From positions 338,814-402,813 of the forward strand of contig JAKLDG010000001.1 in assembly GCA_022703645.1 (NCBI GenBank): DNA of 64,000 nucleotides. The letters run 5' to 3'. Below are positions 42,920-61,151 of the stretch, one piece after another (position 1 is the stretch's first letter; each line of letters opens with the position of its first letter). The position numbers and the translations under genes were made by a program. Under the pieces are notes generated by a model. That model worked only from the letters and a program-made list of their open reading frames with translations. It was not told the DNA's origin and ran no database searches. This DNA comes from Patescibacteria group bacterium. GTDB taxonomy: Bacteria; Patescibacteriota; JACPGU01.

Positions 42920-45001
42920 ATGATAATAAAAAAGAAAGTAAAAAATGAATTTTTCTTCGGATTTATTTCTGTTGCTGTTCTTGTTCTTTTTTTGGGAATG
43001 CTTTCCATGTTTGCCGCCAGTAATGTCGATACCACGGTTAATATAATTTCAGCTGCTCCGGCAATTACTTTTTTTACTGCGACGCCAACATCTGTGAATT
43101 CGGGGGATTCATCGCTATTAACATGGAATTCTACTAATACAACATCTTGCAATAGTAGTGATTTTGCAACAGGCGGCGCGATTAGCAACTTGATCGGTGT
43201 TCCAACTGGCGCGTTAACCACTGCAACTACCTTTACTATTACTTGTTCTGGTCCTGGAGGTCCTGACGCAACTAGTAGCGTTACGGTAACAATCTCCGCG
43301 GGTGGCGGACCATCTTATACTTCTACCCCCCCAACTCCAACTGTTCCAAAAATTACTTCTTTTATTGCGACGCCAGCTCTAGTTGATTCTGGCGGATCAT
43401 CCGTGCTTTCGTGGACTTCGCAGGATGCCACTTCTTGTAGCAGTCCTGATTTTTCAGTTGGATCAAGCTCAAATACAAACGGTTCTATTACATTAAATAA
43501 TATTACTTCAAATAAAATATTTAATCTAATTTGCACTGACGGAATCAGCTCAGACATGGCTAGCGTGGAGGTAAAGATTAATGTGGTTCCAATATTAATC
43601 GCAAATAAGACTTTGGTTGCCCCAGGTGATAGCATTTCTTTGAGCTGGACTGCGGCCGGGGCTGCAGTATGTACCGCTTCGGGAGTTGCTGGTTGGTCCG
43701 GTAGCAAATTTGTTCCAAGCGGAGCGCAAGATGTGGTTTTACCAAGTTCCCCGGGTATTTATGTTTATACACTAACTTGCGATGAAAGTTCAACTTTTGT
43801 AACGATAAACGTTGGATTGCCGCCGGTTTTTATCAGTTTTAATTCAAATAAAACTACTACTGCTCCCAGTGATACCGCATCACTCGCTTGGGATGTAACC
43901 GGAGCTGACACCTGCGAGGCTTCCGGAGCATCTGATTGGAGCGGAAACAAATCTTTATCTGGTACAAGTAGTATAACTTTACCAGACACTATTGGGTTTT
44001 TCTCATATAAATTAAGCTGTTCAAATGTATTTGGCTCTATCAGCCGTACGATCAATATCAATGTTTCAACTGCTGAAAAACCTCCAATTGAAGAACAACC
44101 TCCAATGCCAATTACTAACCCAATAGAAGTTACTAAACCAACTGAAGAAACATTTGGCGGCGCAGGCGGCGGTATTGAAGTAACGATGACAACCGAAAAT
44201 CCTCAGATAGAAATTGGGGCATTGGGAACAACCAAAATATCCTGGACTTCCAAAGGAGCTGATAGCTGCAGCGCTTCGGGTGTTGACGGCTGGGCAGGAA
44301 ACAAGCCAGTTAATGGAAGTGAAACTGTTACAGTTCCGGCTGAAACCGGAATCTATACTTATGTATTGACTTGTGAAAATCAAAAAGGACAAAAAACAGT
44401 TGCTTATGCTAAGATTACCGTAACCGAACCAAATAAAATTGAGGGTTTTTTCAACATCATAGAATCAGAAATCATTCCGGAAGCAGCGGTAACGTCTGGT
44501 GAAGTTTTGCAATATGTTCCAACCCCATCTGAAATAATAGACAAGCTAGGCCTGACGGAAGCTTTTTTGATTTCTGGTCCGCCAAAAACATTTGCGCAGA
44601 ATGTTTTATCCACTATCATTGCCGCTTTGTTGTTGTTGATGGTCCTTTACTTATCGATTTTATACTATAAAAATTCCAAAAACTGGGGTTATATCTTTGA
44701 TGCAGATTCAGGTCGCGCCATATCGGACGCAAAAATTGAAATCCGCAAAGCGTCCAATGGCGAGATACTCCAAACGACTTTATCCGACCATAAAGGAAAG
44801 TTCAGATTTATTTTAAAGAATCTTAAAGATGGGGATTATATTGTTGCGGTTGAAAAAAGAGGGTATCTTTTTCCATCCAAAGTTTTTGGAAGAAAGACTA
44901 CAATACCAAAATTAGTCTATCTCGGAAGAAAAACTAAATTGATTATTAAAAAAGGATTTAAGATGAAAATTCCTATCGACCCAATATCAAAACAAATATG
45001 A
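42920..45001 (+). CDS. secreted multi-repeat surface protein (5-6 Cys-containing Ig-like repeats, Pro-rich linker, C-terminal TM + carboxypeptidase-regulatory-like beta-sandwich)
   Basis: repeats of ..SGDSSLLTWNSTNTTSC.. type; TM (IIAALLLLMVLYLSILYY) followed by NWGYIFDADSG...GDYIVAVEKRGY. Confidence 0.6.
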   Translation: MIIKKKVKNEFFFGFISVAVLVLFLGMLSMFAASNVDTTVNIISAAPAITFFTATPTSVNSGDSSLLTWNSTNTTSCNSSDFATGGAISNLIGVPTGALTTATTFTITCSGPGGPDATSSVTVTISAGGGPSYTSTPPTPTVPKITSFIATPALVDSGGSSVLSWTSQDATSCSSPDFSVGSSSNTNGSITLNNITSNKIFNLICTDGISSDMASVEVKINVVPILIANKTLVAPGDSISLSWTAAGAAVCTASGVAGWSGSKFVPSGAQDVVLPSSPGIYVYTLTCDESSTFVTINVGLPPVFISFNSNKTTTAPSDTASLAWDVTGADTCEASGASDWSGNKSLSGTSSITLPDTIGFFSYKLSCSNVFGSISRTININVSTAEKPPIEEQPPMPITNPIEVTKPTEETFGGAGGGIEVTMTTENPQIEIGALGTTKISWTSKGADSCSASGVDGWAGNKPVNGSETVTVPAETGIYTYVLTCENQKGQKTVAYAKITVTEPNKIEGFFNIIESEIIPEAAVTSGEVLQYVPTPSEIIDKLGLTEAFLISGPPKTFAQNVLSTIIAALLLLMVLYLSILYYKNSKNWGYIFDADSGRAISDAKIEIRKASNGEILQTTLSDHKGKFRFILKNLKDGDYIVAVEKRGYLFPSKVFGRKTTIPKLVYLGRKTKLIIKKGFKMKIPIDPISKQI

Positions 45002-46476
45002 AAAAAACAACGTTTAAAAAAATAGCCTACTTATTTTTGTCCACATTGATTTTTTGCGCTCTGATGACGCCTTTTAGCAGCTATGCGGCTGATTTGGCCA
45101 AAAAAAGCGGCAACAATTTTGGTATTACAAGAATTTCTATCGCGGATACTGATTATCCTTTAACTATTTCTATTTCTTCGGATAAAAATATAGTATTTAA
45201 TAATGGTTTAGACATAGCAAATTTAAAAGTTAGAATCGCAAATAGTAAAAAACAAGGCATTTCTGGAATTAATATTAAATTCAGTTCAGGCGGTAGGGAT
45301 ATAATTAATCCACCGGAAAATACCACAGACAATAATGGCATTGCATATTTCAAAGTCAGTTCTACCCAAGAGCATATCTCCAATTTTCAATTTAGCCTTA
45401 GAGACCCTACCAGCGGTGAGATTTATTCAAGTAATGTGGTAGCAATAAAGTTTTTGAGCCAAAGCCGCTTTAGTATGACCGTTAACTCTATCGCGGATTT
45501 CAAAAATAATACCGCCACAAAAGAGGCTGCTGCTTATGTTGTCGCTCCTGCGGCTACAGCTGTAATCGCCGTAAGCGCCTTTTCTCCAATTATTAATTTA
45601 TTAAGTTCTATTTTCCCATATTTGAATTACCTATTTAACGTAATATTACAGTTTTTTGGTATCAGAAGAAAACAAAAACCTTGGGGAATACTTTATGACA
45701 GCATGACAAAAGAGCCGATTGATCTTGGCACTGTCAGATTATTTGACGCAAAAACAAAAAATATCGTTCAAACCGCAACAACCGATAAGTCCGGAAGGTT
45801 TGGTTTTCCACCTTTATCAGGCAAATACTATTTAACAGCTGCTAAATACCAGTTTGGGTTTCCTTCAAAATTACTAAAAGGAGCGGTAGTTGACGGTAAA
45901 TATCACGGTTTATATTTCGGAGATAAGTTTAATTTAAAAAAGAATCAAAAACTTACTATTTCTGTACCAATTGACTTAGCAACCGCGGTAACTGCTCGGT
46001 TAAGATTGATAGACAGACTAAAAGCATTTTCAGAAAAGATATCGCGTCCTTTTTTGGTGGTAAGTCTGATGGTCACGTTGGTTATGCTTTGGATAAATAC
46101 AACCCTATATAATGAAATATTGATCATACTATATATATTGATGATTCTTACTATGAGGCGCATTCGCACATCAGCCATTATTCCATGGGGTATTATTTAT
46201 GATTCAAAGACTAAAAAACCGCTCAAGAGTATGCCGATTAAAGTATTTGATAAAAAATACAATAAATTGTTGGAAACGCGCGTCAGCGATGAAGCTGGCA
46301 GATTTACTTTCATATTACCGAAAGGGGAGTATTATTTCAAAATTGCTGATTTTCATTATCAGATAGATTTAAAAGCAAAAGAGTTAGGCGGCAATAAAAA
46401 CTATCATGGCGAGATTTTCAAGGTAGAAGAGAATGAGGTTTTAAGGTTTAATATTCCATTAAAAAGTTTAAAATAG
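44998..46476 (+). CDS. surface protein: signal peptide, Big_1-like Ig domain, then two TM/basic/WGI(L/I)YDS/carboxypeptidase-regulatory-like modules
   Basis: TTDNNGIAYFKVSST (invasin-like Ig motif); repeated RRKQKPWGILYDS.. and RRIRTSAIIPWGIIYDS.. modules; 4-nt overlap with upstream gene. Confidence 0.55.
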   Translation: MKKTTFKKIAYLFLSTLIFCALMTPFSSYAADLAKKSGNNFGITRISIADTDYPLTISISSDKNIVFNNGLDIANLKVRIANSKKQGISGINIKFSSGGRDIINPPENTTDNNGIAYFKVSSTQEHISNFQFSLRDPTSGEIYSSNVVAIKFLSQSRFSMTVNSIADFKNNTATKEAAAYVVAPAATAVIAVSAFSPIINLLSSIFPYLNYLFNVILQFFGIRRKQKPWGILYDSMTKEPIDLGTVRLFDAKTKNIVQTATTDKSGRFGFPPLSGKYYLTAAKYQFGFPSKLLKGAVVDGKYHGLYFGDKFNLKKNQKLTISVPIDLATAVTARLRLIDRLKAFSEKISRPFLVVSLMVTLVMLWINTTLYNEILIILYILMILTMRRIRTSAIIPWGIIYDSKTKKPLKSMPIKVFDKKYNKLLETRVSDEAGRFTFILPKGEYYFKIADFHYQIDLKAKELGGNKNYHGEIFKVEENEVLRFNIPLKSLK

Positions 46477-46500
46477 CATGAGCAATAAAAACAAAAAAAT

Positions 46501-49500
46501 ATGATTGTGGTAAAGAAAAAGAAAATACCTTTAAGACCGTTTTTAATCCTCTTAGTGTTAATAGCTGGGTTTACTTTGAGTTTGGGTTTAAAACCAAATG
46601 AAAAAATAAAAGCGGCTTATTCTAATCCTTGCAAGACAGCTGGCACGTATGCTGGTTATGTAGTTGACGCGAATCTTAATGTTATTATTCCGGCTTACAA
46701 TAATGCTGTGTTTGGTGACACTTTCTATGATAGTACCAGCAAAGAAATTCATTGTAAAAGCATAACGATAGAAACGGGAGCGACTTTAGATATATCGCCA
46801 AAAACTACCGGTGCAAGTAAAACAGGCGGCACAAATTATAGAAGATTGGTTCTTGATGGTGATTTGAATATCGCAAGCGGTGGAACGCTAAATCTATATG
46901 GCGGCAATATATATAATACCGGCGGACTCAATGGCACTGGGATAACAAATGATGGAAAAGGATATGGTATGAATGTTATGGTTGGTGGAAATGTTTTGGT
47001 TGAATCCGGCGGATGGATATCAGCTGATGGCAAAGGGTATGAACATAGTAAGGGGCCGGGAGCAGGTGTGGCTGAACCCGGTTCACAAGGCGCTGCATAT
47101 GGTGGGGCTGGTCCGGATGGAACCAATTGTTATGGGAAATATTACGGTTCGGTTTCTGACCCGATAGAACTCGGCAGCGGCAGTAGTTTGGGAGTAGGAG
47201 GCGGAGTAGTTGATATAACTGCCGCGGGAACAATATTAATTCGCGGCGTAGGCAAAATTACGGCAAACAGCATTGGAGAGGGATCGGGCGGTTCAGTAAG
47301 ACTCAGCGCCAATACTATTAGTAGTACAATTGACGGCGTAAATATACCTTCTATTACAGCAAATGGCGGTAGTGGGTCTTATTACAGTGGCGGCGGCAGA
47401 ATCGCGCTTTTTTATAATTCATCAAATTTTGGCGGTGATATCAAAGCTATTGCTAACGCCTATGGAGGAGCTGGCACTGTATTCAAGAAAAAAAATATCG
47501 AGGCTTATGGTGATTTAATTATTACAAATAATTATCAGGATCATACCGATAACCCTCCGGACTATACTCCATATGCATATACAAAAATTGGCAAAACAAA
47601 AATCGATTCTGGCACATATAAGAATATCACAGTTAATAAAAGAGCAAACGCTATTATTGAATCTAGTAATATAGTAAACATCAATGGTGGTACTTTTGAA
47701 GTAAATAATTCCAAACTTGAAAATAAAGGCACTTTAGCTTCACAGACTTCCGCAGAAAAATTTCTGGCGAAAAATACCGCTCGGATACTTAATAGCGGTA
47801 CAGGGTTATTTAGCCTGTCCGCGAACTCAAACGCTATATTTGACGGCATAGACACTTATTTTGAGAACCAAAATAATATTATCCAAAATTTCGCCAATTT
47901 AACTATCTCTAACGGGGCTGTCATGAGCCATGCCGTCAATGATGCTACCGGTGTGACAAATTGTCTTAGGAATTCAATTGATAATCCAGTTGGCGGCGCG
48001 ATCCCTCCTTGCGAATATAAGGATTGGGGTGATGGCTATGGGAAACATTGGAATCAAAAATATACCTTAAGGATAAATGCCACAAGTGTTAATATTGATA
48101 ACAAAAGTTCGATAGATGTTTCACAAAAGGGATTTCAAACATTACCTGGAACATCAGGTTTTGGGCCGGGAGGGTCAAGTACGGCTTACTCAATCGGTGG
48201 TTACGCGGGAGGTTCTTATGGTGGCAGAGGTGGTAACGATAATACTGGGGGAGTAAGCGCAGATATTTATGGCGACTCGGATGGAGACCTGAATAATCCA
48301 AATGATCTGGGAAGCAGCGGTGATACCGGCTATACTGCCGGAGGATTAGTAAGAATAACAGTTTTGGGCGATATTGTTAATAATGGCTCTATATTATCAA
48401 ATTCAGGTACGGTTTCAAATGGTTTTGCCGGTGGGTCAGGAGGAGGCATAAGATTGGATGCAGACCGGATTCTCGGAGCTGGAAAAATTTCTGCCAACGG
48501 CATGCCCGGAACGATAGATCTTGCGAAAGGCGGCGGAGGAGGCGGAAGGATCGCGATCACATACAAAACCACAAAAGATTTTTATGGTCCAATTACCGCT
48601 TATGGAGGGTCTACTGATGGGGGACCCGGTACGATACTTTTTGCAAACAATAGCTCGGGAGCCTTAATTGATAAAGAACTTGTTATTTCTAATTCAGTTT
48701 TAAACGACAATCCAACCAAAATAGGAGGCGGTACGTATAAAAATATTACCGTAAAGAATACCTCGCCAACTCTTACTGACCTGACTTTAGCCGCAATCGT
48801 TTCTGGACAATCCGTTGTCATGCAAGATGGTGGGAATTTTGAAGTTAACCAAACTAATTTAACTAATAGCGGAACTATTTCTTTATTAGCCGGAACGTCA
48901 AATTTAGTTATAAAGGGAAAATCAAATTTTATTAATATCGGACCTACCGCCTCTCCTGGCATTAACGCGAATAGTACTTCTAAAGTTATTTTGGACAATG
49001 CCAATTTTGAAAATAAGAATAATATTGAACAGAATTTTGGCAATCTTTATATCCAGAATGGAGCAATATTAACGCATACTCAAAATGATTACTTAACGGT
49101 AAATTGCGTGAATACTTCCTGTACCAACCAAGACCTGGGTGATGGCAATGGAATGCATTACAATCAGGCTTATACATTAAGAATACATGCAAACAATGCT
49201 TTAATTGATAAATTTAGCGCTATTAATGTTGATGGCAAGGGCTATGACATGGGTAGAGGACCGGGTAATAATGGGTCTGCTAATTCTGCCGGAAGTTATG
49301 GCGGAGCTGCGTCAAGCGGCGACAGTACCTATGGTTTAGCGGATAACCCTAATGATTTGGGCAGTGGAGGTTATTCCGGTAGTTATGGTGATAATACCGG
49401 CGGCGGTTTAGTAAGAGTTAGGGCAGACGGTAATATAACAGTTGATGGCTTTATTTCTTCGGATACAACATCTGCCGGATCTTTTGACGGCGCTTCAGGA

Positions 49501-52500: not shown

Positions 52501-55500
52501 GGTGTTGTTGTCTGTAAAGGATTTTCATGCACTGATCAAAATGTAAATGTAAATACTTTGCCAACCCAGTATTATTATAAAATTTATGCTCAGTATGGAA
52601 CCGCGGCTCCCTTCAGTTATTCTGTCGGTTCAACGGCAGTAAGCGGAAATCCTAACCCGGAAAACCCCCAAAAGTTTGATAATACCAATGAAGCAACACC
52701 AAGTGTAACACTGGACAATCTATCAGGACCTTACACGCCTCTTAATACATTTAAGATTGCAAATTATCTTGTCTGGAAAGCAACAACTCCGGCTGATTGC
52801 TCAGGGGCTTGGACGCCAACCAATGGAGCTGACTATTCAGGAGTGCAAGGAACTGGAAATATCATTTACAAAAACCCAGCAGCGCCAATATCATATATTG
52901 ATACTGCAGTTACAAATGGCGTTGGTTATTGTTACAAAATCTTTGTCCAATATAATGGTGAAACAATCAATACTACTGATCTAATGTATTCTTCTGGATT
53001 AAGTCTTTGGACTCAACCGCCAAATCATAATCCAACAATTAGCGTAAATAGCATCACCCAAACGATCGGCACGGATAATGTGGTAATTAACTTTAATGTA
53101 AATGATATTGATCCATCTGATAATGGCAAGCTTTCTGTTGGCTTTGCTGTTACAAATCCGGTTTCAGGATGCAGTATTAGCACTTTAACCGGACCAATAA
53201 CTAACCTCGGTGTCGGAGCTCATAGCGTTACTTGGACCGCCACTACCACTAATGGAACCGCGGGGGATTGTCCAGGCGTAGAAATGTTAGCCGGTTCTGC
53301 TCAACTGACAGCCACTGTTTCCGATTTTATCGGAGCCACCGGTACCGCTAGTCCAACTTTCTCTCTTGACACCAAAGCTCCCATTGCAAGTTCCAGCCTT
53401 ATTTTGTCCTCCAAAAACAGCAACTCCATTACTGTCGCTACCGGAGCTACCGGGGCTACTGATGGAAACATAAAAACTACCGCTGCCTATAAAGTCTATT
53501 ACAAGCAAGGATCAACGGTAGACGAAGTAAGCGGTACGCAAATACTACCAAATATTAATAGTTATGTTGCGGGACAGATATTTACTGCTTCCTCGCTAAT
53601 AACTAACCAGCAATATTCATTTAATATCTGGGCTTATGATAACTATGGACATAAAACTGCTGCTACGGTATTAAATGTCAGCACAAAAGGAAAATCTGTT
53701 ACAGGATTTACAGCTATAGTTCAAGGTATGAGAGTCCATCTGAGTTGGGACGCAATGCTGCCGGCGCCAGATAAGCATCTGGTTATTCGTAAGAAAGGAA
53801 CATCCGCGTCTACTTGGACGCCAACAGATGGTATTGGAATATATGCTGCTGGCAACACGGTAGATGCAGATACGATAGTAGTTTACCATGGCACAGGCGT
53901 CACTCTGGATGATGATGCAGTTGATGGAGCAGCCTATACCTATACTATCTTTGCCAACTATTCTGGAAATCTATATTCAGAGGGGGTTTCAGCTCCATCG
54001 ATAACACCGAATGCTCTGAACGCGTCGTTATCTGCTCCTGCCTATATACCAAATGGATCAAATTATGATATCGCACTCAACTGGGTAGCCCCCACACCAA
54101 GTTACAGTTTACAAAAATATGTAGTAGTTAGAGAAGTTGGGTCTCCTACTTGTTTAATCGAATGGACGCCAACCAAGGATAATAACTATAATGCATTAGA
54201 TCCAACCGGCTTTACTAATGAAGAAATTATCTATTCCGGAACCGGAACCACTACTACTGATAATATGGGAGGAACGGGAGTTTCTTCTGGTACAAATGTT
54301 TGCTATAAGATCTTTACTCAATATCTGGGAGATGATTTAGCGGTTCCAACAAACTTAGTTTATTCCGCTGGAATTGCCGCTACCTATGTACCGCCAAATC
54401 TGCCTCCAGAGATAGAGATTGGTTCAGTCACAGCGCTACAAACTACCGGAACTGAAAATATTGTTATAGCTTACCGTGTTAGAGATTCCGACTCAACCAA
54501 TTTGAATATTACATTTAGCATGATTGATCCGGGAGGCTCCACTTGCCAAATGAATTTAACTGATAATTTGGCGGGGATTGATGGCACTTACTATACTCAT
54601 ACCGCTACTTGGAATGCAGGGCTGGCAGGAGAGTGCCCGGGATTTGAAGTAACAAATGCTGTTATCCAAGTAACTGCCAGCGATAGTCTTAATTCTGTTT
54701 CGCAAAACTCCGCTCCATTTCTGCTTGATACTCTATCCCCAAGGCTTCCAACTCCAACTGTTTCTAACTTTAATTTAACTAATTTTTCATCAACAGGAGA
54801 TAAGATATTCTTCAATCTAGGATCTAATTCAACAACTGATACTAATGCGCTTAACTACAAGATATACTATGCTTCTGGGGGAAGTGTTGATGAAACAGGA
54901 ATACTCATAACAGGAGCTCCTATAGCATTTACTCCTGGAGCTGCATATTCGGTAACCGGATTAACACCGGGACAAAACTATACATTTAATATTTGGGCTT
55001 ATGATAAATATGGGCATAAAACTTCTGCGACTTCCGTAACATATTCAACTATTGTGCCTGCTCCGGCAAGCTTCTCTGTAACTCCGCATGGAATGAGATT
55101 ATCACTTACTTGGACGGCTCCTGTCGGTGGAACCCCAGACTATTATCTGATAGTTAGAAAAGCTAATTCAGATCCAATAATAGCTCCCGCTAATGGTTCT
55201 ACATACAACCTGGGGGATATTTTGAGCGGGGGAATGGTAGTCTACAATTCAACCGGGACAAGCCTTGACGATGATAATATTGATGACGGTCCTTACTATT
55301 ACCGAATTTATGCGCATTATTCAAATGGCAATTTCTCACCAGCCTTGGCTGGCAATGCGATTGCAGTGGCGGAAGGACCAAATACATTCAGCGCAACCTC
55401 AAGCCCAGCGCCAGTAGTCACATACATAGACACTCCACCAACAAATAATTTCAGTTTCGAGAACTATCTTATTTGGAAGAAAGAACAACCTAGCTGTACT

Positions 55501-57534
55501 ACTGATGGCAATCTGGTAGACGGTACGGTATATAATTATCTTGATTCAGTAGATGGGGGAACGATTATTTATAAATCAAACATTGATCCTAATGGTATGT
55601 CTGATATCTCAACTACAATAACTGGCCATACTTACTGCTACAAGATGTTCGTAGAGTATAATGGAGAAACTACTAATACTATCTATTCTAATGAAATGTA
55701 CTTTCAAATCACTCCTCCAAATAATCCTCCGACTCTTTCCGCTCTTTCTGTTGTTCAAACAATAGGTAGTGACGATGTTGTAATCGGATTTACTATTAAT
55801 GATCCGGATGGAATTGACGCTGGCAATCTCTCAGTCGCTTTATCAATTGTTAACCCTCCAGAAGGATGCAGTATCGGTACAATATCTGGTTCTTTGACTG
55901 GTTTATCAAATGGTAGTTATTCGGTTACTTGGACTGATGCCGATACTACTTGCCCTGGGCTTGAATTATCTAATGCTGGTTTAGAGTTTATTGCTCACGA
56001 CCTGATAGATTATTCATCTGCGCAGATAAGCAGTTTTTTACTCGACACTAAAGCGCCTACACTAATAGAGGGGCTAACATATGACCCACCAACCGCAGAT
56101 ACTATTGTAGTACGCCTAAGCACCAATACATTCTTCTTAAATCCTTTGAGTGTTGATCAAAATCTAAAAGGAGGAGGAAATAGCTTTAAGATTTACTACA
56201 AACAAGACAGTACCGTTTCAGAATCCGATACACAATTAGCTGCCTTTGATAATTATATCTTAGGGCAAGACTATACGGCCACACCATTAGGATCTAATTC
56301 ACAATATTCATTTAATATCTGGGCTTATGATAACTATGGACATAAGACAGCATATACTGATCCAGTCAAGCCAACTACCAGCGGTCTCAACGGACCACCA
56401 GTAGTACAATATGTTGCTCAACCAGTCCAAGCTGCTGGTACTGGTAATATCAATTTCAGTTTTGAAGTAAAAGATCCAGACTCGGATGGTTTAACTATCA
56501 CATTCTCACTAATTAATAATCCAGTCGGTTGCAGTATCTCTGGCGTTACTGGGTTTACCAATCCTGTATCCTCCACCAGTACTTTTGCAACAATTATCTC
56601 CAGCTGGAATGCGAAATTAACTTGTGATGGAGCGGATCAGTCTGACCTCAAGATCAGAATTAGCGCGGATGATGGAAACGGACATACAGCAACTATTGAT
56701 TCAGATCCATTTACTATCGATACGAAAAATCCTGTCTCTCCAGGAAACCTATCATTCCCAGCAGGAACTACTTTTGCGAATCAGGTTAGTGTAAAGACAA
56801 ATACTATTTCCGGTAGCGATACTAATGCCGATGATTGGCATGTATATAGGGTTGATGGAAATACTTTCCCAACGGATCCATTCTCTCCTGCTCTAACTCC
56901 AATTAAATTATATGATCCTTATATACCAGATGACGTATTTATTGATTCGGGGTTAACGCCAGATTCTGATTATACTTATAATATCTGCCTGCATGATACT
57001 TTTATGAACTTTACCTGCGCAACATCGCAAACTATTCATACACCAGCTTCAATATTAAGCTTTAATATTCTTGGTATTGCCAGTGGAATATCGGTTGGAG
57101 TTGAAACAACTAATATCACTACTACTTCTACAACAATTCCTTTTGGCAGTACTACAGTAGGGGATACAAAGGTTGGAGCGCTTGATCTACAAGGCACAAC
57201 AAATCTGGTTAATGGATATACTATTGATATCAGACAAGACCAAGATTTAACATCAGGAGGCAACACTATTCCTGCCCTTACCTCTACTAACGCTAGTCCG
57301 CAAGTATGGCCACCAACTCCAATTAGTTCTTTCTTTGGATATTCATCAATCAATCTTTCCAGATTTTCAAATGGCGTTAATTGGGCAGGATTAACTTTGT
57401 CTGACCTACCGATAGTAACACAGATAAACGGGACTCATGATGATGATGTTTTATTCAAATTATCCACCAAGAGTCCTCAACCAGCAGGAACTTATCAAAA
57501 CACCATTACTTTCTCAATAATGGCGAATCCGTAG
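46501..57534 (+). CDS. giant (3,677 aa) adhesin-like surface protein: N-terminal TM/signal, Gly-rich beta-helix-like region, two LamG/ConA-like lectin domains, ~7 FN3-like and ~5 Ig-like repeats
   Basis: LamG signatures (GAFTIDTWIYPKS...YMDEFRISKG; GDFTIDFWANFS...YLDEFRIIKG); FN3-like units with WTAP...CYKI(F/Y)xQY; Ig-like units ending F(S/L)LDTKAP; Gly-rich GGYAGGSYGGRGGN. Confidence 0.75.
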   Translation: MIVVKKKKIPLRPFLILLVLIAGFTLSLGLKPNEKIKAAYSNPCKTAGTYAGYVVDANLNVIIPAYNNAVFGDTFYDSTSKEIHCKSITIETGATLDISPKTTGASKTGGTNYRRLVLDGDLNIASGGTLNLYGGNIYNTGGLNGTGITNDGKGYGMNVMVGGNVLVESGGWISADGKGYEHSKGPGAGVAEPGSQGAAYGGAGPDGTNCYGKYYGSVSDPIELGSGSSLGVGGGVVDITAAGTILIRGVGKITANSIGEGSGGSVRLSANTISSTIDGVNIPSITANGGSGSYYSGGGRIALFYNSSNFGGDIKAIANAYGGAGTVFKKKNIEAYGDLIITNNYQDHTDNPPDYTPYAYTKIGKTKIDSGTYKNITVNKRANAIIESSNIVNINGGTFEVNNSKLENKGTLASQTSAEKFLAKNTARILNSGTGLFSLSANSNAIFDGIDTYFENQNNIIQNFANLTISNGAVMSHAVNDATGVTNCLRNSIDNPVGGAIPPCEYKDWGDGYGKHWNQKYTLRINATSVNIDNKSSIDVSQKGFQTLPGTSGFGPGGSSTAYSIGGYAGGSYGGRGGNDNTGGVSADIYGDSDGDLNNPNDLGSSGDTGYTAGGLVRITVLGDIVNNGSILSNSGTVSNGFAGGSGGGIRLDADRILGAGKISANGMPGTIDLAKGGGGGGRIAITYKTTKDFYGPITAYGGSTDGGPGTILFANNSSGALIDKELVISNSVLNDNPTKIGGGTYKNITVKNTSPTLTDLTLAAIVSGQSVVMQDGGNFEVNQTNLTNSGTISLLAGTSNLVIKGKSNFINIGPTASPGINANSTSKVILDNANFENKNNIEQNFGNLYIQNGAILTHTQNDYLTVNCVNTSCTNQDLGDGNGMHYNQAYTLRIHANNALIDKFSAINVDGKGYDMGRGPGNNGSANSAGSYGGAASSGDSTYGLADNPNDLGSGGYSGSYGDNTGGGLVRVRADGNITVDGFISSDTTSAGSFDGASGGGIKLIANSILGSGSISASSNLTSGNIGGGGRISLIATQKNYSGTVSVNRGGTGANYGTIYDSLAIPTTYGPSATPLTYNTKLSNNTPYIKADSSATTIGVDEGNAVSTGYTPDSDTSLLLKMDNWGDGLIYDSSAKSIPVIKYGTTSFSDTVLKTGTHSLLFNGSTGRLIPDGTFTSNFQYGTGAFTIDTWIYPKSVTTLQTIYSQKNSATPTTNASSLQITTTGQLKYTENGVSIISPVSTIKLGSDVGWQHVALVRDNLGVERLFYNGSVVGTQSSTYSKFSDVGIGCLYQSTNTLFYNGYMDEFRISKGVARWTSDFIPLSDDGNWEKLNLRATRTNPSSDTKLLLHLDGTNGSTTYTDSSPSNHTILRYNTPTISTNTSKFGGASGAFPRVTSPYFDYIYANDNVNDWTFGAGDFTIDFWANFSDNVRQGVLAIGSGAYAPIAFEVVSNNLNVYMTSNGSSWDIASGQPVGQTFGPVTPGVWVHYALTRNGNTFYLFVNGTTVNSFMSSLSLWNNSGALYIGQYFGSVTAFKGYLDEFRIIKGRAAWSNNFTPSTTPYEIYDDPSFNGTVDIGIIDNLAGEYVFSGCNGANCTFSDSKVTARFINGIANLAVKVKDKRDGQIKHHGFSGLKINSVSNVSYINNNQITGAIEIQDRTPERSIPSGPAPAGSITKGTAGATIFPMGAGFSIINNSKGTSQSQQDLGGNLVVRGPLASAPYRLYLDKNIMYKRGDYLNSDGTISSVATDYQVVCVNTADYTQTKIRCNDDLSTSAIPSGLRNYGIYTFNKTYNFYTQNETSNYSAPSISQVLIPASNPTVPVISPLTITPTNGKLNLSWNNPIDNIGQTKTLIVRGIDSIPTFVPSDGTDYNTWSNTTVTGEEMIYDSTNVGAGSEVKNFDDANVFFGTRYCYTIYAQYIGYIYSVGTSACSTLTSIIDPPVNPTITIQGMMINIGWTAPPSGNPDNYLIVRKKGTTEPNWNPTGETADYNIGDTVGDGVVVCKGFSCTDQNVNVNTLPTQYYYKIYAQYGTAAPFSYSVGSTAVSGNPNPENPQKFDNTNEATPSVTLDNLSGPYTPLNTFKIANYLVWKATTPADCSGAWTPTNGADYSGVQGTGNIIYKNPAAPISYIDTAVTNGVGYCYKIFVQYNGETINTTDLMYSSGLSLWTQPPNHNPTISVNSITQTIGTDNVVINFNVNDIDPSDNGKLSVGFAVTNPVSGCSISTLTGPITNLGVGAHSVTWTATTTNGTAGDCPGVEMLAGSAQLTATVSDFIGATGTASPTFSLDTKAPIASSSLILSSKNSNSITVATGATGATDGNIKTTAAYKVYYKQGSTVDEVSGTQILPNINSYVAGQIFTASSLITNQQYSFNIWAYDNYGHKTAATVLNVSTKGKSVTGFTAIVQGMRVHLSWDAMLPAPDKHLVIRKKGTSASTWTPTDGIGIYAAGNTVDADTIVVYHGTGVTLDDDAVDGAAYTYTIFANYSGNLYSEGVSAPSITPNALNASLSAPAYIPNGSNYDIALNWVAPTPSYSLQKYVVVREVGSPTCLIEWTPTKDNNYNALDPTGFTNEEIIYSGTGTTTTDNMGGTGVSSGTNVCYKIFTQYLGDDLAVPTNLVYSAGIAATYVPPNLPPEIEIGSVTALQTTGTENIVIAYRVRDSDSTNLNITFSMIDPGGSTCQMNLTDNLAGIDGTYYTHTATWNAGLAGECPGFEVTNAVIQVTASDSLNSVSQNSAPFLLDTLSPRLPTPTVSNFNLTNFSSTGDKIFFNLGSNSTTDTNALNYKIYYASGGSVDETGILITGAPIAFTPGAAYSVTGLTPGQNYTFNIWAYDKYGHKTSATSVTYSTIVPAPASFSVTPHGMRLSLTWTAPVGGTPDYYLIVRKANSDPIIAPANGSTYNLGDILSGGMVVYNSTGTSLDDDNIDDGPYYYRIYAHYSNGNFSPALAGNAIAVAEGPNTFSATSSPAPVVTYIDTPPTNNFSFENYLIWKKEQPSCTTDGNLVDGTVYNYLDSVDGGTIIYKSNIDPNGMSDISTTITGHTYCYKMFVEYNGETTNTIYSNEMYFQITPPNNPPTLSALSVVQTIGSDDVVIGFTINDPDGIDAGNLSVALSIVNPPEGCSIGTISGSLTGLSNGSYSVTWTDADTTCPGLELSNAGLEFIAHDLIDYSSAQISSFLLDTKAPTLIEGLTYDPPTADTIVVRLSTNTFFLNPLSVDQNLKGGGNSFKIYYKQDSTVSESDTQLAAFDNYILGQDYTATPLGSNSQYSFNIWAYDNYGHKTAYTDPVKPTTSGLNGPPVVQYVAQPVQAAGTGNINFSFEVKDPDSDGLTITFSLINNPVGCSISGVTGFTNPVSSTSTFATIISSWNAKLTCDGADQSDLKIRISADDGNGHTATIDSDPFTIDTKNPVSPGNLSFPAGTTFANQVSVKTNTISGSDTNADDWHVYRVDGNTFPTDPFSPALTPIKLYDPYIPDDVFIDSGLTPDSDYTYNICLHDTFMNFTCATSQTIHTPASILSFNILGIASGISVGVETTNITTTSTTIPFGSTTVGDTKVGALDLQGTTNLVNGYTIDIRQDQDLTSGGNTIPALTSTNASPQVWPPTPISSFFGYSSINLSRFSNGVNWAGLTLSDLPIVTQINGTHDDDVLFKLSTKSPQPAGTYQNTITFSIMANP

Positions 57535-57575
57535 AAACAATTAATCAAGAAAACAAAAAAAACAACAAATCAAAT

Positions 57576-58289
57576 ATGCTAAAAAAAATATCTACAACCC
57601 TTCTCATTACTGCTTCCATATTAATATTCTCCAACCAAGCCTTGGCGCAAGAAACTACTAACACTATCAGCTCTTCTGTTTCTCCAGCGTTAATTAGTCT
57701 CAAATTAGATAAAGGAGAAACTAAAAGCTCTTCTTATGAGTATGTCAATGGTACTGATGATAATCTTATAATTACTATTAGCACTAGAGCCTTTGCTCCT
57801 AGTAATGGGGAACATGGAACCCCGCTATTTATAGACAAAGATGGAAAAAAGGTTACTTCACCCTTAACCAGTTGGATTAAATTAAATGAGAGTAGTATGA
57901 GTGTTAAGAAAGGGGAGAAAGCAACTGTAAACTTTCAGATTAATGTTCCTTCTGATGCAAAAGAAGGCAAATACTTTGCAGCTATATTTAATACAGAAAC
58001 TGATGGGGGGTCAGATAGCGGTTCATTAGTAAAGAAAGAGTTGGGAGTTACTCTGGTTGTTGAAGTTCTCGCCCCCAAACCAATACCAGGCACTACTACA
58101 ACCACATGGCAGAAAGACAATCTTCTTTCCTATATTATTTTTGGTGCTGCGTTATTGGCATTACTATTATTAATTGCTGCGATATTTAAGAGGAAAAAGA
58201 AAACTCCAAAATTCTTCCCGGAAGAGGAAAGGAAAGAGTTAGTAAAGAAAGTAAAACGAAAAGTAAAAATCACCAAAAATAAAAAATAG
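57576..58289 (+). CDS. cell-surface protein with signal peptide, beta-rich ectodomain, C-terminal TM anchor and Lys-rich cytoplasmic tail
   Basis: signal peptide ...SNQALA; C-terminal LLSYIIFGAALLALLLLIAAIFKRKKK. Confidence 0.5.
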   Translation: MLKKISTTLLITASILIFSNQALAQETTNTISSSVSPALISLKLDKGETKSSSYEYVNGTDDNLIITISTRAFAPSNGEHGTPLFIDKDGKKVTSPLTSWIKLNESSMSVKKGEKATVNFQINVPSDAKEGKYFAAIFNTETDGGSDSGSLVKKELGVTLVVEVLAPKPIPGTTTTTWQKDNLLSYIIFGAALLALLLLIAAIFKRKKKTPKFFPEEERKELVKKVKRKVKITKNKK

Positions 58290-58321
58290 CTCTAATTCGC
58301 TCTAAATGATATAATATAGCA

Positions 58322-59179
58322 ATGAGCAATCAAGACGATGTCCGCATAAATATTTTAGGAATTCCTATCGATCGGGTAGGTTATATTGATGTTTTAGATA
58401 AGATTGAATACTATATAAAAAAAGGCGGGTATCACTATATCGCAACGGTTAATCCAGAGTTTATTATGCACGCGGCGCAAGATAGCGAGTTTAAAAAAGC
58501 ACTACAAAATTCGAACTTAAATACAGCTGATGGCGTCGGAATCGTATGGGCAAGTAAATATCTTGCGAAAACTCAAAAATCAAATCTCAAATCTCAAAAT
58601 TTAAGCATCACTTCGCGATTTATTTATAAAATCAAAAAGATATTCTGGTTGAAAATTTCTTTGTTCTCAATTTTATTTAACCGTCGTTGGCTCTATTCTG
58701 AAATTCCGGAGCGTGTTACCGGAGCAGACCTGATCTGGAAAATAGCAAAAAAAGCGCAAGATGAAGGCTGGAAAATTTTCCTACTTGGAGCAGGGGAGGG
58801 AGTCGCGGGAAACGTTGCGGGAAAATTGAAATCAAAATTCCCGAAAATTAATATTGTCGGTACTTATTCAGGCCGCCCGGAAGAAGAGGGGATTGCTGAT
58901 AGAGTTGCCGGATATGAACCGGATATTTTGTTTGTTGCTTTTGGCTCTCCTCGACAGGAAAAATTCATTTATAACAATTTGGATAAGCTCAATGCAAAAG
59001 TTGTTATTGGAGTCGGTGGAACATTTGATTTTATTGCTGGGCTAGCAAGAAGAGCGCCAAGATTTATGAGGAGATTCGGAATTGAATGGTTATGGAGACT
59101 TGTCTGCCAACCATTTCGAATCGGCAGAATTATCAACGCTTTTCCAAAATTTGTCTGGAAAGTTTGGAGGGGTAAATAA
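58322..59179 (+). CDS. WecB/TagA/CpsF-family glycosyltransferase
   Basis: INILGIPIDRVGYIDVLDKI...YHYIATVNPEFIMHA matches WecG/TagA N-terminal signature. Confidence 0.8.
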   Translation: MSNQDDVRINILGIPIDRVGYIDVLDKIEYYIKKGGYHYIATVNPEFIMHAAQDSEFKKALQNSNLNTADGVGIVWASKYLAKTQKSNLKSQNLSITSRFIYKIKKIFWLKISLFSILFNRRWLYSEIPERVTGADLIWKIAKKAQDEGWKIFLLGAGEGVAGNVAGKLKSKFPKINIVGTYSGRPEEEGIADRVAGYEPDILFVAFGSPRQEKFIYNNLDKLNAKVVIGVGGTFDFIAGLARRAPRFMRRFGIEWLWRLVCQPFRIGRIINAFPKFVWKVWRGK

Positions 59180-59218
59180 TTTGACAAGTAAATTTGGATG
59201 TTGTAAAATAGAAATATA

Positions 59219-59245
59219 ATAGAGTAGAAATACTCTGTTTTTTTG
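59219..59245 (+). terminator. terminator-like hairpin AGAGTA-gaaa-TACTCT + T8
   Basis: 6-bp stem and long T-run after tagA-like gene. Confidence 0.5.
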
Positions 59246-59301
59246 TTTTTAAAATTAATACGAAGAAAAAATCTATACCAATAATTAATATACTATAATA
59301 G

Positions 59302-59335
59302 GATTTTTTCTTAAGAGGAGGAATTTTACGAAAGC
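59302..59335 (+). promoter_or_regulatory. conserved 35-nt 5' leader motif (copy 2, upstream of nusA) immediately after TATAAT (59294..59299)
   Basis: GATTTTTTCTTAAGAGGAGGAATTTTACGAAAGCT; see copy 1 at 40655. Confidence 0.5.
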
Positions 59336-59393
59336 TGGAGCAAACAAAATTTTTTAAATTTTGGATGCGAAAGTGAGAGTAAAATTGTGACGA

Positions 59394-60602: not shown

Positions 60603-60629
60603 AACACTATAAAAGGAGGTTACCTTTTA

Positions 60630-60851
60630 ATGGCGTATTTTAACATCGCGCTATTTTTGAAAGCATTTGTACCTGCGTGTGTGATTGCCAGTGCTTATGA
60701 TTTTTTATTTATATGGATATATAGAAAAAAGGAAAAAGATGTAAAATATCTGAGGTCATACATCTATGTAATCCTAATCTTCGCAGCGGTTTTTCTTGTT
60801 AGTTATTGGGTTAATTCCGACATAACGGTTTTTACGGATAGTTTAAAATAA
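60630..60851 (+). CDS. small membrane protein
   Basis: ORF track; AGGAGG Shine-Dalgarno; 2 TM. Confidence 0.35.
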   Translation: MAYFNIALFLKAFVPACVIASAYDFLFIWIYRKKEKDVKYLRSYIYVILIFAAVFLVSYWVNSDITVFTDSLK

Positions 60852-60872
60852 ACCGAAAAATTAGAATAGGAG

Positions 60873-61091
60873 GTGGTTGCTATCGATATCAATCTATATC
60901 TTATATTTATTTTTATTGCCGCCTTTCCCGCCTCATATATCGGATTATTAATTAAGAATTATATAGATTATAAAGAAAAAAGAGGGTGGCAGTGGAAGGC
61001 AGCACACCTTCTAATTGATCTTACTGTCTGGGCGCTATTTTTCTTGATTATTCAATTTATTGCAATCCATATTTTTAAATTAAAAGTCTGA
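60873..61091 (+). CDS. small membrane protein
   Basis: ORF track; AGGAGG Shine-Dalgarno; 2 TM. Confidence 0.35.
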   Translation: MVAIDINLYLIFIFIAAFPASYIGLLIKNYIDYKEKRGWQWKAAHLLIDLTVWALFFLIIQFIAIHIFKLKV

Positions 61092-61141: not shown

Positions 61142-61151
61142 CAATGAAATA

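What the first reader, a model, noticed from the sequence alone, without database searches (positions are those of the whole stretch)
42920..58289. Four-gene surface-protein operon centred on an 11-kb adhesin-like gene
Four consecutive plus-strand genes, with a 4-nt overlap between the first two and short gaps after, encode proteins of 693, 492, 3,677 and 237 aa. They share signal peptides or anchors, Ig/FN3-like repeats, two LamG lectin domains, a Gly-rich beta-helix-like N-terminus in the giant, and C-terminal TM anchors. A TagA/WecG glycosyltransferase lies immediately downstream. In a reduced, probably episymbiotic genome, 15 kb devoted to one surface apparatus is a strong candidate for host attachment. 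The combination of LamG lectin domains with a transmembrane-anchored partner set is not a named system.
Basis: partly seen in the sequence, partly recalled or inferred. Interest (0 to 1): 0.6.

Follow-up and report, generated by a model that had tools for sequence, protein, structure and literature searches.

The report
Giant adhesin on a pilus-type anchor
A tiny symbiotic (Patescibacteria) bacterium encodes a 3,677-residue sugar-binding surface protein whose tail is a pilus-subunit-type domain, next to a membrane-anchored pilus-chaperone-like partner; this makes it a giant-adhesin variant of the just-described CPR "Pam" pilus system and a relative of the Gram-positive WxL surface-display clusters.

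Summary
The four plus-strand genes exist exactly as described (693, 492, 3,677 and 237 aa), and so do the two LamG domains and the downstream WecG/TagA gene. The giant has no C-terminal membrane anchor, and its "beta-helix" is untested.

- **Giant's tail.** The last ~180 residues form a conserved domain, nearly always at the extreme C-terminus, with 286 cluster representatives in proteins of 94-4,319 aa. Relatives match NCBIfam "CPR_Pam_pilin_C" (65 of 76). A confident model (pLDDT 94) resembles donor-strand fibre subunits (TasA, FimA/G, PapA, Csu).
- **The 237-aa protein.** It is a signal peptide, one PapD-like/DUF916 domain and a C-terminal membrane helix. Its family is homologous to Firmicute WxL-interacting proteins (hhalign 98.9%, E 3.6e-17). 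A family member lies next to the tail-bearing gene in 13 of 17 loci examined.
- **Conservation.** All four genes recur together in a second genome, in the order A-B-D-C, and B, C and D recur in a third. WecG does not recur.

Best reading: a usher-less, chaperone-assisted donor-strand system that holds a giant lectin adhesin on the cell surface. It is a new variant of the Pam pilus (2026 preprint) and WxL kinds, so "not a named system" no longer holds. The strand exchange itself is inferred.

The parts
42920..45001 (+). Gene A (693 aa). Signal/anchor (aa 15-33), about five or six Cys-containing Ig-like repeats, TM helix (aa 562-580, nt 44603-44659), then a CarboxypepD_reg-like domain (aa 590-649, nt 44687-44866).
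   Evidence: ORF. TM. Pfam CarboxypepD_reg E 1.2e-7. Full-length orthologue in L016 (29% id, E 6e-63). Shares the 'TM - basic - (P/N)WG - CarboxypepD_reg' module with B (E 5e-12).
44998..46476 (+). Gene B (492 aa). Signal peptide and Big_1 ectodomain (aa 57-139, nt 45166-45414). Then a conserved ~310-aa membrane module (aa 177-492, nt 45526-46473): TM region - GIRRKQKPWG - CarboxypepD_reg - TM hairpin - IIPWG - prealbumin-like domain.
   Evidence: Pfam Big_1 1.3e-9, CarboxypepD_reg 5.1e-11, SpaA 8.5e-9. TM. Homologues directly downstream of pilin-like and D-like genes in L008/L009/L013 (E ~1e-50) and L011 (4e-21), and in L004 and L016 (E 2e-55, 4e-146). Alignment.
46501..57534 (+). Gene C (3,677 aa), the giant adhesin-like protein. 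N-terminal signal/anchor (aa 14-32). Gly-rich duplicated region (aa 40-1080). Two LamG domains (aa 1105-1330 and 1334-1560). Unique region (aa 1560-1830). FN3-like modules and three ~450-aa super-repeats (aa 1945-2395, 2404-2850, 2859-3286) plus a partial fourth. C-terminal pilin-type domain.
   Evidence: Relatives have modular N-termini. L004 (1,326 aa) has LamG but no Gly-rich part. L016 (2,463 aa) has the Gly-rich part but no match to C's LamG region.
49813..51180 (+). Two tandem LamG / concanavalin-A-like lectin domains of C (aa 1105-1330 and 1334-1560).
   Evidence: Pfam Laminin_G_3, two stretches, E 9.9e-26. Internal duplication at 29% identity.
57055..57087 (+). Conserved strand LSFNILGIASG (C aa 3519-3529), just upstream of the NCBIfam-defined pilin C-domain. 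It is a candidate 'linker' donor strand.
   Evidence: Family consensus LSFxIxGVxSG (alignment A3). Beta-strand E20-26 with pLDDT ~98 in the model. It lies N-terminal of where NF058581 starts to align. The role is inferred from the PamA/B description.
57124..57531 (+). Pam-pilin-type C-terminal domain of C (aa ~3542-3677), ending at the stop codon (...PAGTYQNTITFSIMANP*).
57576..58289 (+). Gene D (237 aa). Signal peptide, one PapD-like / DUF916 (WxLIP_PGBD) domain (aa ~30-165, nt 57663-58070), C-terminal TM helix (aa 186-204, nt 58131-58187) and a Lys/Arg-rich tail. It lacks the second (DUF3324-like) domain found in most family members.
   Evidence: Pfam WxLIP_PGBD E 2e-5 (25.1 bits against a 27.3 cut-off). 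Its two homologues score 9e-4 and 9.3e-6. 11 of 16 family members hit it (best 1.9e-8). hhalign of the family against WxLIP: 98.9%, E 3.6e-17. The best PDB sequence hit of the family profile is EfmWxLIP1 9i25/9i1y, E 2.7e-5. Model pLDDT 67.6; Foldseek finds PapD-like/ASH domains and CsuC, PapD, FimC, FaeE and Caf1M. Domain loss is visible in alignment A6.
58322..59179 (+). Gene E, a WecG/TagA-family glycosyltransferase. It is adjacent but not a conserved member of the cassette.
   Evidence: Pfam Glyco_tran_WecG 4.6e-55 and NCBIfam wecG_tagA_cpsF 1.5e-40. Different genes follow the cassette in L004, and none follows in L016.

Best explanation
This is a chaperone-assisted, usher-less donor-strand surface-display system of a monoderm Patescibacteria bacterium. 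It is built around a giant adhesin rather than a small pilin.

**Shown**
- C is a Sec-type exported 3,677-aa protein with two LamG lectin domains.
- C ends in a domain of the Pam-pilin C-domain superfamily, an incomplete-Ig pilin-type fold.
- D is a type-I membrane protein whose ectodomain is a PapD-like/DUF916 domain homologous to WxL-interacting proteins.
- CTD-bearing genes and D-family genes are neighbours across Patescibacteria, Saccharibacteria and Dojkabacteria, and in one soil contig of unknown taxon.
- A, B, C and D travel together.

**Inferred**
- After export, the free C-terminal pilin-type domain of C is captured at the outer face of the membrane by D. D supplies a beta-strand to the domain's groove (donor-strand complementation), as PapD/FimC do for pilins and as predicted for PamC/D with Pam pilins and for WxLIP with WxL.
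- C then follows one of two routes. It may stay tethered to the membrane through D, or through the N-terminal strand of A or B acting like the PamR anchor. Alternatively, it may use its own conserved linker strand (LSFNILGIASG) to join further subunits.
- Either way, the Gly-rich and LamG parts project about 3,500 residues outwards to bind glycans on a host cell.
- A and B carry a conserved 'TM - PWG - transthyretin-like' membrane module. They are accessory anchor or platform proteins of unknown mechanism.
For: - **CTD family and position:**
- **Link to the Pam pilin C-domain:**, with the paper.
- **D is PapD-like/DUF916 plus a TM helix:**
- **D family is homologous to WxLIP:** hhalign 98.9%, E 3.6e-17 over both domains. 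The best PDB sequence hit is EfmWxLIP1. tblastn finds proteins annotated 'DUF916' and 'DUF916 and DUF3324'.
- **Adjacency:** CTD genes and D-family genes are adjacent in 13 of 17 loci.
- **Cassette conservation:** B homologues follow in L008, L009, L011 and L013. All four genes are conserved in L016, and B-C-D in L004.
- **Other anchoring routes excluded:** no LPXTG, type IV prepilin motif or W-x-L motif, and no C-terminal TM in C.
Against: - No complex could be modelled, so strand donation by D, A or B is untested.
- The window CTD's own hit to NF058581 is weak and partial (22.3 bits against a 55-bit cut-off, profile positions 2-58 of 148).
- D's model has only moderate confidence (pLDDT 67.6, from 3 sequences).
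- D lacks the second chaperone domain, so it may be an anchor rather than a chaperone.
- Four loci with CTD proteins, including two with giants, show no D-like gene within the flanks available (L024-L027).
- The AF2 monomer places the linker strand in cis, so the domain might be self-complemented and need no donor.
- No binding target is known.
Confidence: 0.6

Rival explanations
1. C is the tip adhesin of a true Pam-type pilus whose shaft pilins are encoded elsewhere in the ~0.87-Mb genome. It would be the FimH/PapG analogue, with lectin part and pilin domain. D only chaperones it until it is handed to the first shaft subunit.
For: The lectin-plus-C-terminal-pilin-domain layout matches FimH, PapG and CupB6. 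Their pilin domains are among the fold hits. The Pam model has tip, shaft and anchor subunits. 34 of the best 150 family members are longer than 1,000 aa. In L025 a 344-aa pilin-like gene sits just upstream of a 4,319-aa CTD giant.
Against: No other CTD-bearing ORF occurs in the 64-kb window or in the cassettes of L004 and L016. C keeps the linker-like strand, which the described tip pilin PamT lacks. The rest of the genome could not be searched.
Confidence: 0.22
2. This is WxL-type non-covalent cell-wall anchoring. The C-terminal domain of C binds peptidoglycan, as the WxL domain of 'large WxL' adhesins is proposed to. D (the DUF916 'peptidoglycan-binding domain') stabilises it on the wall, and no filament forms.
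For: D's family is homologous to WxLIP. The layout matches WxL clusters: a large multidomain adhesin with its anchoring domain at the extreme C-terminus, next to a TM-anchored DUF916 protein. Examples are the 1,514-aa E. mundtii WxL protein next to WxLIP and the Bacillus cluster with an L-type lectin protein. Single-domain WxLIPs exist (EfmWxLIP2).
Against: The CTD has no Pfam WxL hit. hhalign of the CTD family against 12 WxL domains gives Prob 1.5%. No W-x-L motif occurs anywhere in A-D. Only one CTD protein is present, whereas a WxL cluster needs at least two WxL proteins. Peptidoglycan binding was never tested here, and for WxLIP it rests on docking.
Confidence: 0.13
3. This is a generic secreted giant or S-layer-like protein with unrelated neighbours, and the apparent system is coincidental gene clustering.
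For: Large repetitive surface proteins are common in CPR genomes (general knowledge). Some CTD giants lack a D-like neighbour. D also has a weak NCBIfam hit to a 'putative S-layer protein' model (E 1.8e-4).
Against: Four-gene synteny is kept at 29-46% protein identity in L016, and three genes are kept in L004. CTD and D-family genes are adjacent in 13 of 17 loci across several CPR classes. The CTD sits strictly at the C-terminus.
Confidence: 0.05

Closest known systems
Pam pilus system of CPR bacteria (PamA/B/E pilins, PamT tip, PamC/D TM-anchored chaperones, PamR anchor; Troman et al., bioRxiv 2026, doi 10.64898/2026.03.03.709456; NCBIfam NF058581, NF058579)
   Same: - The lineage is CPR, a monoderm.
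- The C-terminal pilin-type acceptor domain belongs to the same superfamily, and a conserved strand sits just before it.
- The neighbouring partner has a PapD-like fold and a C-terminal TM helix.
- There is no usher.
- All components carry Sec signals.
   Different: - The ~150-300-aa pilin N-domain is replaced by about 3,500 residues: Gly-rich region, 2x LamG, FN3-like super-repeats.
- Only one CTD gene is present, and there is no PamT-like gene.
- The chaperone-like protein has one domain instead of two.
- Two extra conserved membrane proteins (A, B) with CarboxypepD_reg domains are not mentioned in the preprint.
- All NF058581 scores are below the curated cut-off.
- There is no evidence of a filament.
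WxL / WxLIP (DUF916-DUF3324-TM) surface-protein clusters of Lactobacillales and Bacillales (Siezen 2006; Brinster 2007; Galloway-Pena 2015; Hassan & Williamson 2022/2023, PMC9772566, PMC10599100)
   Same: - D's family is homologous to WxLIP (hhalign 98.9%).
- The anchoring domain lies at the extreme C-terminus of a large multidomain adhesin encoded beside the TM-anchored DUF916 protein.
- A strand from DUF916 is predicted to complete the partner's sandwich.
- Lectin-type and beta-helix-type passenger domains also occur in WxL clusters.
   Different: - There is no detectable WxL domain or W-x-L motif.
- There is one anchoring-domain protein instead of at least two.
- D lacks DUF3324.
- There is no LPXTG protein or sortase.
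- The phylum is different.
Classical, alternate and archaic chaperone-usher pili (Fim, Pap, CFA/I, Csu) and their two-domain tip adhesins (FimH, PapG, CupB6)
   Same: - The CTD has the fold class of these pilins, and D has the fold class of their chaperones.
- The 'lectin part plus C-terminal pilin domain' logic matches the tip adhesins.
- The free C-terminus is conserved.
   Different: - There is no outer membrane and no usher.
- The chaperone is membrane-anchored and has a single domain.
- There is no sequence similarity.
- The passenger is about 20 times larger.
TasA / TasA-like (TLP) and archaeal donor-strand fibres
   Different: - There is no sequence relationship.
- TasA has no dedicated PapD-like chaperone.
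- TasA subunits are single-domain.

Membership tests
Pam pilus system (CPR) | The pilin carries the C-terminal truncated-Ig acceptor domain and scores above the curated cut-off of NCBIfam NF058581 (55 bits). | tested here: not met
   The window CTD scores 22.3 bits, E 1.1e-4, covering profile positions 2-58 of 148. Relatives reach 34-36 bits with full profile coverage, still below the cut-off.
Pam pilus system (CPR) | Superfamily-level homology of the C-terminal domain to the Pam pilin C-domain, with a pilin-type (donor-strand) fold. | tested here: met
   65 of 76 family members hit NF058581 (best 6e-12), and 5 hit PamT. The AF2 pLDDT-94 model matches TasA, Fim, Pap, Cfa and Csu subunits.
Pam pilus system (CPR) | [quoted passage not shown] | tested here: inconclusive
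   The N-domain is replaced by a ~3,500-aa multidomain region. A conserved linker-like strand is present. Its exchange could not be tested.
Pam pilus system (CPR) | PapD/FimC-like chaperone with two beta domains and a C-terminal TM helix, encoded in the operon. | tested here: inconclusive
   D has a PapD-like fold (moderate-confidence model) and a C-terminal TM helix. It has only one domain. Two-domain relatives sit beside pilin-like genes in L007-L015. No NCBIfam model matched any D-family member.
Pam pilus system (CPR) | Tip pilin (PamT) and additional shaft pilins in the same operon. | tested here: not met
   C is the only ORF in the 64-kb window that matches the CTD profile.
Pam pilus system (CPR) | Membrane anchor/terminator (PamR: FnIII domains, C-terminal TM, N-terminal donor strand). 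| not testable with these tools
   A (Ig-like repeats plus TM) and B (Big_1 plus TM module) are architectural candidates only. No complex prediction was possible.
Pam pilus system (CPR) | Assembles into an extracellular helical filament. | not testable with these tools
   This needs microscopy or biochemistry.
WxL gene cluster | At least one WxLIP (DUF916 + DUF3324 + TM helix). | tested here: inconclusive
   DUF916 scores 25.1 bits against a 27.3 cut-off, but family-level homology to WxLIP is strong. The TM helix is present. The DUF3324 domain is absent from D.
WxL gene cluster | At least two WxL-domain proteins (small and large) with the dual W-x-L motif. | tested here: not met
   There is no Pfam WxL hit. 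hhalign of the CTD against WxL gives Prob 1.5%. A-D contain no W-x-L tripeptide. There is a single CTD protein.
Chaperone-usher pili | Outer-membrane usher and a soluble periplasmic two-domain chaperone. | tested here: not met
   No usher family was hit in A-E. D is TM-anchored and has one domain. [quoted passage not shown]
Sortase-assembled / LPXTG-anchored adhesins and type IV pili | LPXTG sorting signal, or a class III prepilin signal. | tested here: not met
   Regex search of A-D found none.

The most novel reading that the evidence does not exclude
The cassette may be one form of a widespread, ancient monoderm donor-strand display machinery that unites CPR Pam pili with the WxL/DUF916 clusters of Firmicutes, Actinobacteria and Deinococcus. 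Three points would follow:
- Giant adhesins (up to more than 4,000 aa) are mounted directly on a pilin-type C-domain.
- These adhesins may even polymerise through their own linker strand into a fibre with huge lectin-tipped side arms.
- The conserved B-type 'TM hairpin - PWG - transthyretin-like' membrane protein is the hitherto missing assembly or anchoring platform, a cytoplasmic-membrane counterpart of the usher.
Probability: 0.2. Interest if true: 0.8.

Novelty: new variant of a known kind. Interest (0 to 1): 0.6.

Why it matters
How ultra-small CPR episymbionts hold on to their hosts is largely unknown. The Pam pilus was recognised only in 2026, by cryo-EM of one Saccharibacterium.

This locus shows that the same pilin-type C-domain is also used as a mounting module for giant lectin-bearing adhesins. 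34 of the best 150 family representatives are longer than 1,000 aa. In a small clade it comes with a minimal, conserved four-gene set.

Two further observations are absent from the preprint:
- The Pam-type membrane-anchored chaperone family is homologous to the WxL-interacting proteins of Gram-positive pathogens and commensals.
- A conserved multi-pass protein with transthyretin-like domains accompanies pilin and chaperone pairs in several Patescibacteria.

Both give directly testable hypotheses. One is donor-strand complementation between defined 150-180-aa domains. The other concerns the glycan specificity of the LamG pair. Both also bear on how WxL clusters work.

Tried and rejected
1. **WxL lead.** My first lead was that the giant's tail (...GTYQNTITFSIMANP*) is a WxL domain. 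I rejected it: no Pfam WxL hit, hhalign Prob 1.5% against 12 WxL domains collected from plasmid loci, and no W-x-L motif. No WxL chain is in the PDB for a fold comparison.
2. **CTD against the word-indexed protein database.** A single-sequence search found nothing, not even the protein itself. A 3-sequence profile found 3 small proteins. The exhaustive search was needed.
3. **GTDB species representatives.** A scan with B found nothing. Alignments A3 and A4 were too divergent for pattern scans. A1 gave 8 loci.
4. **Metagenome scan with the D family.** It gave only 2 loci, one of them already known. The single-domain-D cassette is rare.
5. **Libraries and job limits.** The afdb50 fold library was unavailable.
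6. **PDB sequence searches.** There were no significant hits for the CTD, alone or as a profile, or for D alone. PamA/B entries were not found.
7. **Gly-rich region.** It has no Pfam or PDB sequence hit, so 'beta-helix' remains a guess.
8. **Promoter and terminator scan.** The counts are close to those of shuffled sequence, so it gives no usable operon boundaries.
9. **Co-variation idea.** I asked whether CTDs ending in -N(P/L/Y) pair with single-domain D proteins. Too few informative contexts were available.
10. **Population variability.** Three other samples carry 100% identical sequence, so nothing can be said about hypervariability within the population. Between genomes, the giant's N-terminal content is highly modular.

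Full report
**Observation.**
- A: 42920-45001, 693 aa.
- B: 44998-46476, 492 aa, with an ATGA overlap onto A.
- C: 46501-57534, 3,677 aa.
- D: 57576-58289, 237 aa.

The gaps are 24 and 41 nt. A 285-aa WecG/TagA glycosyltransferase follows 32 nt downstream (Pfam 4.6e-55).

All four proteins begin with a hydrophobic signal or anchor segment. C carries two Laminin_G_3 stretches (E 9.9e-26). Its first ~1,000 residues are 17.4% glycine and internally duplicated.

Three details of the description do not hold or could not be checked:
- C has no C-terminal transmembrane segment.
- B is a multi-pass protein, and A's helix is followed by a further 113-aa domain.

Databases name the source a Patescibacteria group MAG. 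The same sequence occurs at 100% identity in three other assemblies.

**The giant's tail is a pilin-type domain.**
The last ~180 residues of C hit nothing in Pfam or by sequence in the PDB.

An exhaustive HMMER search over 1.84 billion cluster representatives found 286 proteins at E<=1e-3. In 126 of the 127 members that cover most of the query, the domain ends within three residues of the C-terminus. The best 150 host proteins range from 94 to 4,319 aa: 81 are 450 aa or shorter and 34 exceed 1,000 aa.

Pfam has no model for this domain. In NCBIfam, 65 of 76 short members match NF058581 'CPR_Pam_pilin_C' (best 6e-12), and five match 'PamT'. The window copy itself matches weakly and partially: 22.3 bits, E 1.1e-4, cut-off 55. 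All relatives I tested also stay below the curated cut-off, although with full profile coverage. This is therefore a superfamily relation, not curated membership.

A 28-sequence alignment gave an AlphaFold2 model with pLDDT 94 and pTM 0.86.
- Foldseek's best PDB matches are donor-strand fibre subunits: the TasA fibre, FimA/FimG/FimF, CfaB, PapA, CsuA/B and the CupB6 tip adhesin.

**What the Pam system is.**
The NCBIfam names led to a 2026 preprint (Troman et al., doi 10.64898/2026.03.03.709456). It reports cryo-EM of filaments from the Saccharibacterium Ca. Mycosynbacter amalyticus and describes these components:
- The tip pilin PamT has only the C-domain.
- The chaperones PamC and PamD are PapD/FimC-like but carry a C-terminal TM helix.
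- The RbmA-like anchor PamR has a TM helix.
- There is no usher.

In the family alignment a conserved segment (consensus LSFxIxGVxSG; C 3519-3529 LSFNILGIASG) lies just before the point where NF058581 starts to align. It is a confident strand in the model. I take it as the candidate linker strand. The monomer model places it in cis, which cannot distinguish self-complementation from exchange.

**D is a PapD-like/DUF916 membrane protein homologous to WxLIP.**
- D and its only two close homologues each hit Pfam WxLIP_PGBD (DUF916) just below threshold: E 2e-5, 9e-4 and 9.3e-6, over almost the whole profile.
- A model from three sequences has moderate confidence (pLDDT 67.6). Its best PDB matches are PapD-like/ASH domains (CEP192, HYDIN), followed by genuine pilus chaperones: CsuC, PapD, FimC, FaeE, Caf1M and SfaE (E about 2e-5, TM about 0.5).
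- Related loci supplied 13 more family members. They are ~310-560 aa (most 310-440) and have two domains before the first C-terminal TM helix.
- D and its closest relatives (P0002, P0003, L016 g212) lack the second domain.
- 11 of 16 members hit WxLIP_PGBD (best 1.9e-8), and none hits an NCBIfam Pam model.
- tblastn with a two-domain member finds proteins annotated 'DUF916' or 'DUF916 and DUF3324' in Lactiplantibacillus, Streptomyces and Cellulosimicrobium, plus Deinococcus hypothetical proteins.
- Profile-profile comparison with five Firmicute WxLIPs gives 98.9% probability, E 3.6e-17, across both domains.
- The family profile's best PDB sequence hit is EfmWxLIP1, entries 9i25 and 9i1y (E 2.7e-5).
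- D's Lys/Arg-rich tail after the TM helix fits an N-out, C-in orientation in the bacterium's own membrane. This is an inference from the positive-inside rule.

**Gene context.**
In every one of the eight genome loci recovered with the CTD, each CTD gene has a D-family gene adjacent or one gene away. These loci come from Patescibacteria, Dojkabacteria, Saccharibacteria and one MAG labelled Gammaproteobacteria. The same adjacency holds in the soil contig L007.

Counting the window, L004, L016 and L028, 13 of the 17 loci examined show this adjacency. L024-L027 do not within the flanks available, and two of those hold giants.

B homologues (E ~1e-50) follow the pilin-like and D-like genes in L008, L009 and L013, and more distantly in L011. 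Their conserved core is a ~310-aa membrane module: TM region - GIxxKxxPWG - CarboxypepD_reg - TM hairpin - KPWG - CarboxypepD_reg. It sits behind variable Ig-like ectodomains. A carries half of this module.

The whole cassette recurs in other genomes:
- L016 has A-like (738 aa, 29% identity over the full length), B-like (46%), D-like (212 aa, 39%) and a 2,463-aa giant, in the order A-B-D-C.
- L004 has B-like, a 1,326-aa giant and D-like.

The giants share the C-terminal modules and the CTD (41-43% identity) but differ at the N-terminus:
- Window: Gly-rich part and LamG.
- L016: Gly-rich part only.
- L004: LamG only.

WecG does not recur. A further metagenome scan found essentially no additional instances, so this particular cassette is confined to a narrow clade.

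**Mechanism.**
Shown:
- Export signals are present on all four proteins.
- C has lectin domains.
- C has a pilin-type C-terminal domain with a strictly free C-terminus.
- D is a TM-anchored PapD-like/WxLIP-family neighbour.
- The synteny is conserved.
- LPXTG, a prepilin signal, a W-x-L motif and a C-terminal TM helix in C are all absent.

Inferred:
- D captures the C-domain of C at the membrane surface by donor-strand complementation. This follows the established logic of chaperone-usher chaperones, and the predictions made for PamC/D with pilins and for WxLIP with WxL.
- C then either stays tethered or joins further subunits through its linker strand. Tethering could be on D, or on the N-terminal strand of A or B acting like PamR.
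- The LamG and Gly-rich parts point outwards.

I put about 0.6 on this general mechanism. Within it, I cannot decide between direct display and 'tip adhesin of a pilus whose shaft genes lie elsewhere'. Only 64 kb of a roughly 0.87-Mb genome were visible, and C is the only CTD gene in that stretch.

**Comparison with known systems.**
The locus works like a Pam pilus or chaperone-usher system. It fails strict membership tests for Pam in four respects:
- The NF058581 score is sub-threshold.
- There is no pilin N-domain.
- There is no tip or shaft pilin.
- The chaperone-like protein has one domain.

It shares a homologous partner protein and the overall layout with WxL clusters. However, the CTD is not detectably a WxL domain (hhalign 1.5%; no motif).

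The preprint does not mention WxL, DUF916, giant proteins, adhesins, LamG or carboxypeptidase-like proteins. [quoted passage not shown] The chaperone-side homology to WxLIP and the giant-adhesin architecture therefore go beyond what is described in the literature I could search.

**Verdict.**
The feature is real and the four-gene unit is conserved. The best description is a new variant of a known kind: a giant lectin adhesin mounted on a Pam-type pilin domain, with a minimal WxLIP/PapD-like membrane partner and two conserved accessory membrane proteins. Interest is 0.6. The key mechanistic step, strand donation, is untested and can be tested directly.

Noticed in passing
L008:7050-9791, L009:11610-14360, L013:9907-12426, L011:6499-8211 (and window 44998-46476): A multi-pass membrane protein family recurs as the third gene after pilin-like and chaperone-like genes in several Patescibacteria. 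Its conserved module is 'TM - GIxxKxxPWG - CarboxypepD_reg - TM hairpin - KPWG - CarboxypepD_reg'. The basic residues after each TM suggest that the transthyretin-like domains are cytoplasmic, which would be unusual.
   Followed up: partly
L019 (Deinococcus sp. NW-56 plasmid NZ_CP026517.1, locus 4944-10517): A DUF916-like protein is the best plasmid hit of a CPR D-family member (E 8e-8). It sits between small secreted proteins with pilin-like C-terminal strands (...GGYLFDMTFTALALP*) and a 1,013-aa protein with SdrD_B/CarboxypepD_reg domains. This may be a diderm counterpart of the cassette, with an usher-like partner.
   Followed up: partly
L024:1-27038 (Logan SRR6007447): Three consecutive giant genes (>6,000, 3,739 and 2,577 aa; LamG/DUF2341/Beta_helix). 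At least two end in the same pilin-type C-domain. No D-like gene lies within 8 kb.
   Followed up: partly
L007:384-1962 (soil metagenome, 51% GC) and the P0104 contig (neighbours DUF222, LigD Prim-Pol, VanW): CTD-family proteins occur on higher-GC contigs whose neighbours look actinobacterial or otherwise non-CPR. In L007 the CTD-family protein is paired with a DUF916-like TM protein. This questions the claim that Pam-type pilins are exclusive to CPR. The taxonomy of these contigs was not established.
   Followed up: partly
L012:8573-10498 (MAG labelled Gammaproteobacteria, 40% GC): One 642-aa ORF carries a D-like N-terminal domain, a TM segment and a CTD at its end. It is either a fusion or two genes merged by my ORF caller or by a sequencing error. 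The contig may be mis-binned CPR DNA.
   Followed up: no
L014:12988-13512 (Saccharibacteria pam-like locus): A ResA/DsbE-like thiol-disulfide oxidoreductase gene sits in a locus with two CTD pilin-like and three D-family genes. This fits the paired cysteines reported in Pam pilins.
   Followed up: no
L022:2026-6570 (E. mundtii pQY182) and L023:2443-4716 (Bacillus tropicus plasmid): Firmicute WxL clusters also hold a 1,514-aa adhesin ending in a WxL domain directly after WxLIP, and an L-type lectin-domain protein. This parallels the 'lectin giant plus DUF916 partner' layout of the window.
   Followed up: partly
window 61363-63876: The 837-aa ORF after NusA is a ClpB/ClpC-type AAA+ protein according to the Pfam hits recorded for the same gene in L001.
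   Followed up: no
window 47576-64000 compared with L001, L002, L003: Assemblies from three different samples (ENA ERZ27257455, ENA ERZ795055, JGI 3300009771) are 100% identical to the window over 3.6-16.4 kb, including the 3' part of the giant gene. The same strain appears in several datasets, with no variation in this locus.
   Followed up: yes
window 57576-58289 (D aa 76-85) and alignment A6: The most conserved stretch of the D family, the loop around G-E-(E/H)-G (NGEHGTPLF in D), is predicted with pLDDT below 50 in the monomer model. This is reminiscent of the WxLIP hairpin, which is said to become ordered only on binding WxL. It is a candidate donor element.
   Followed up: no
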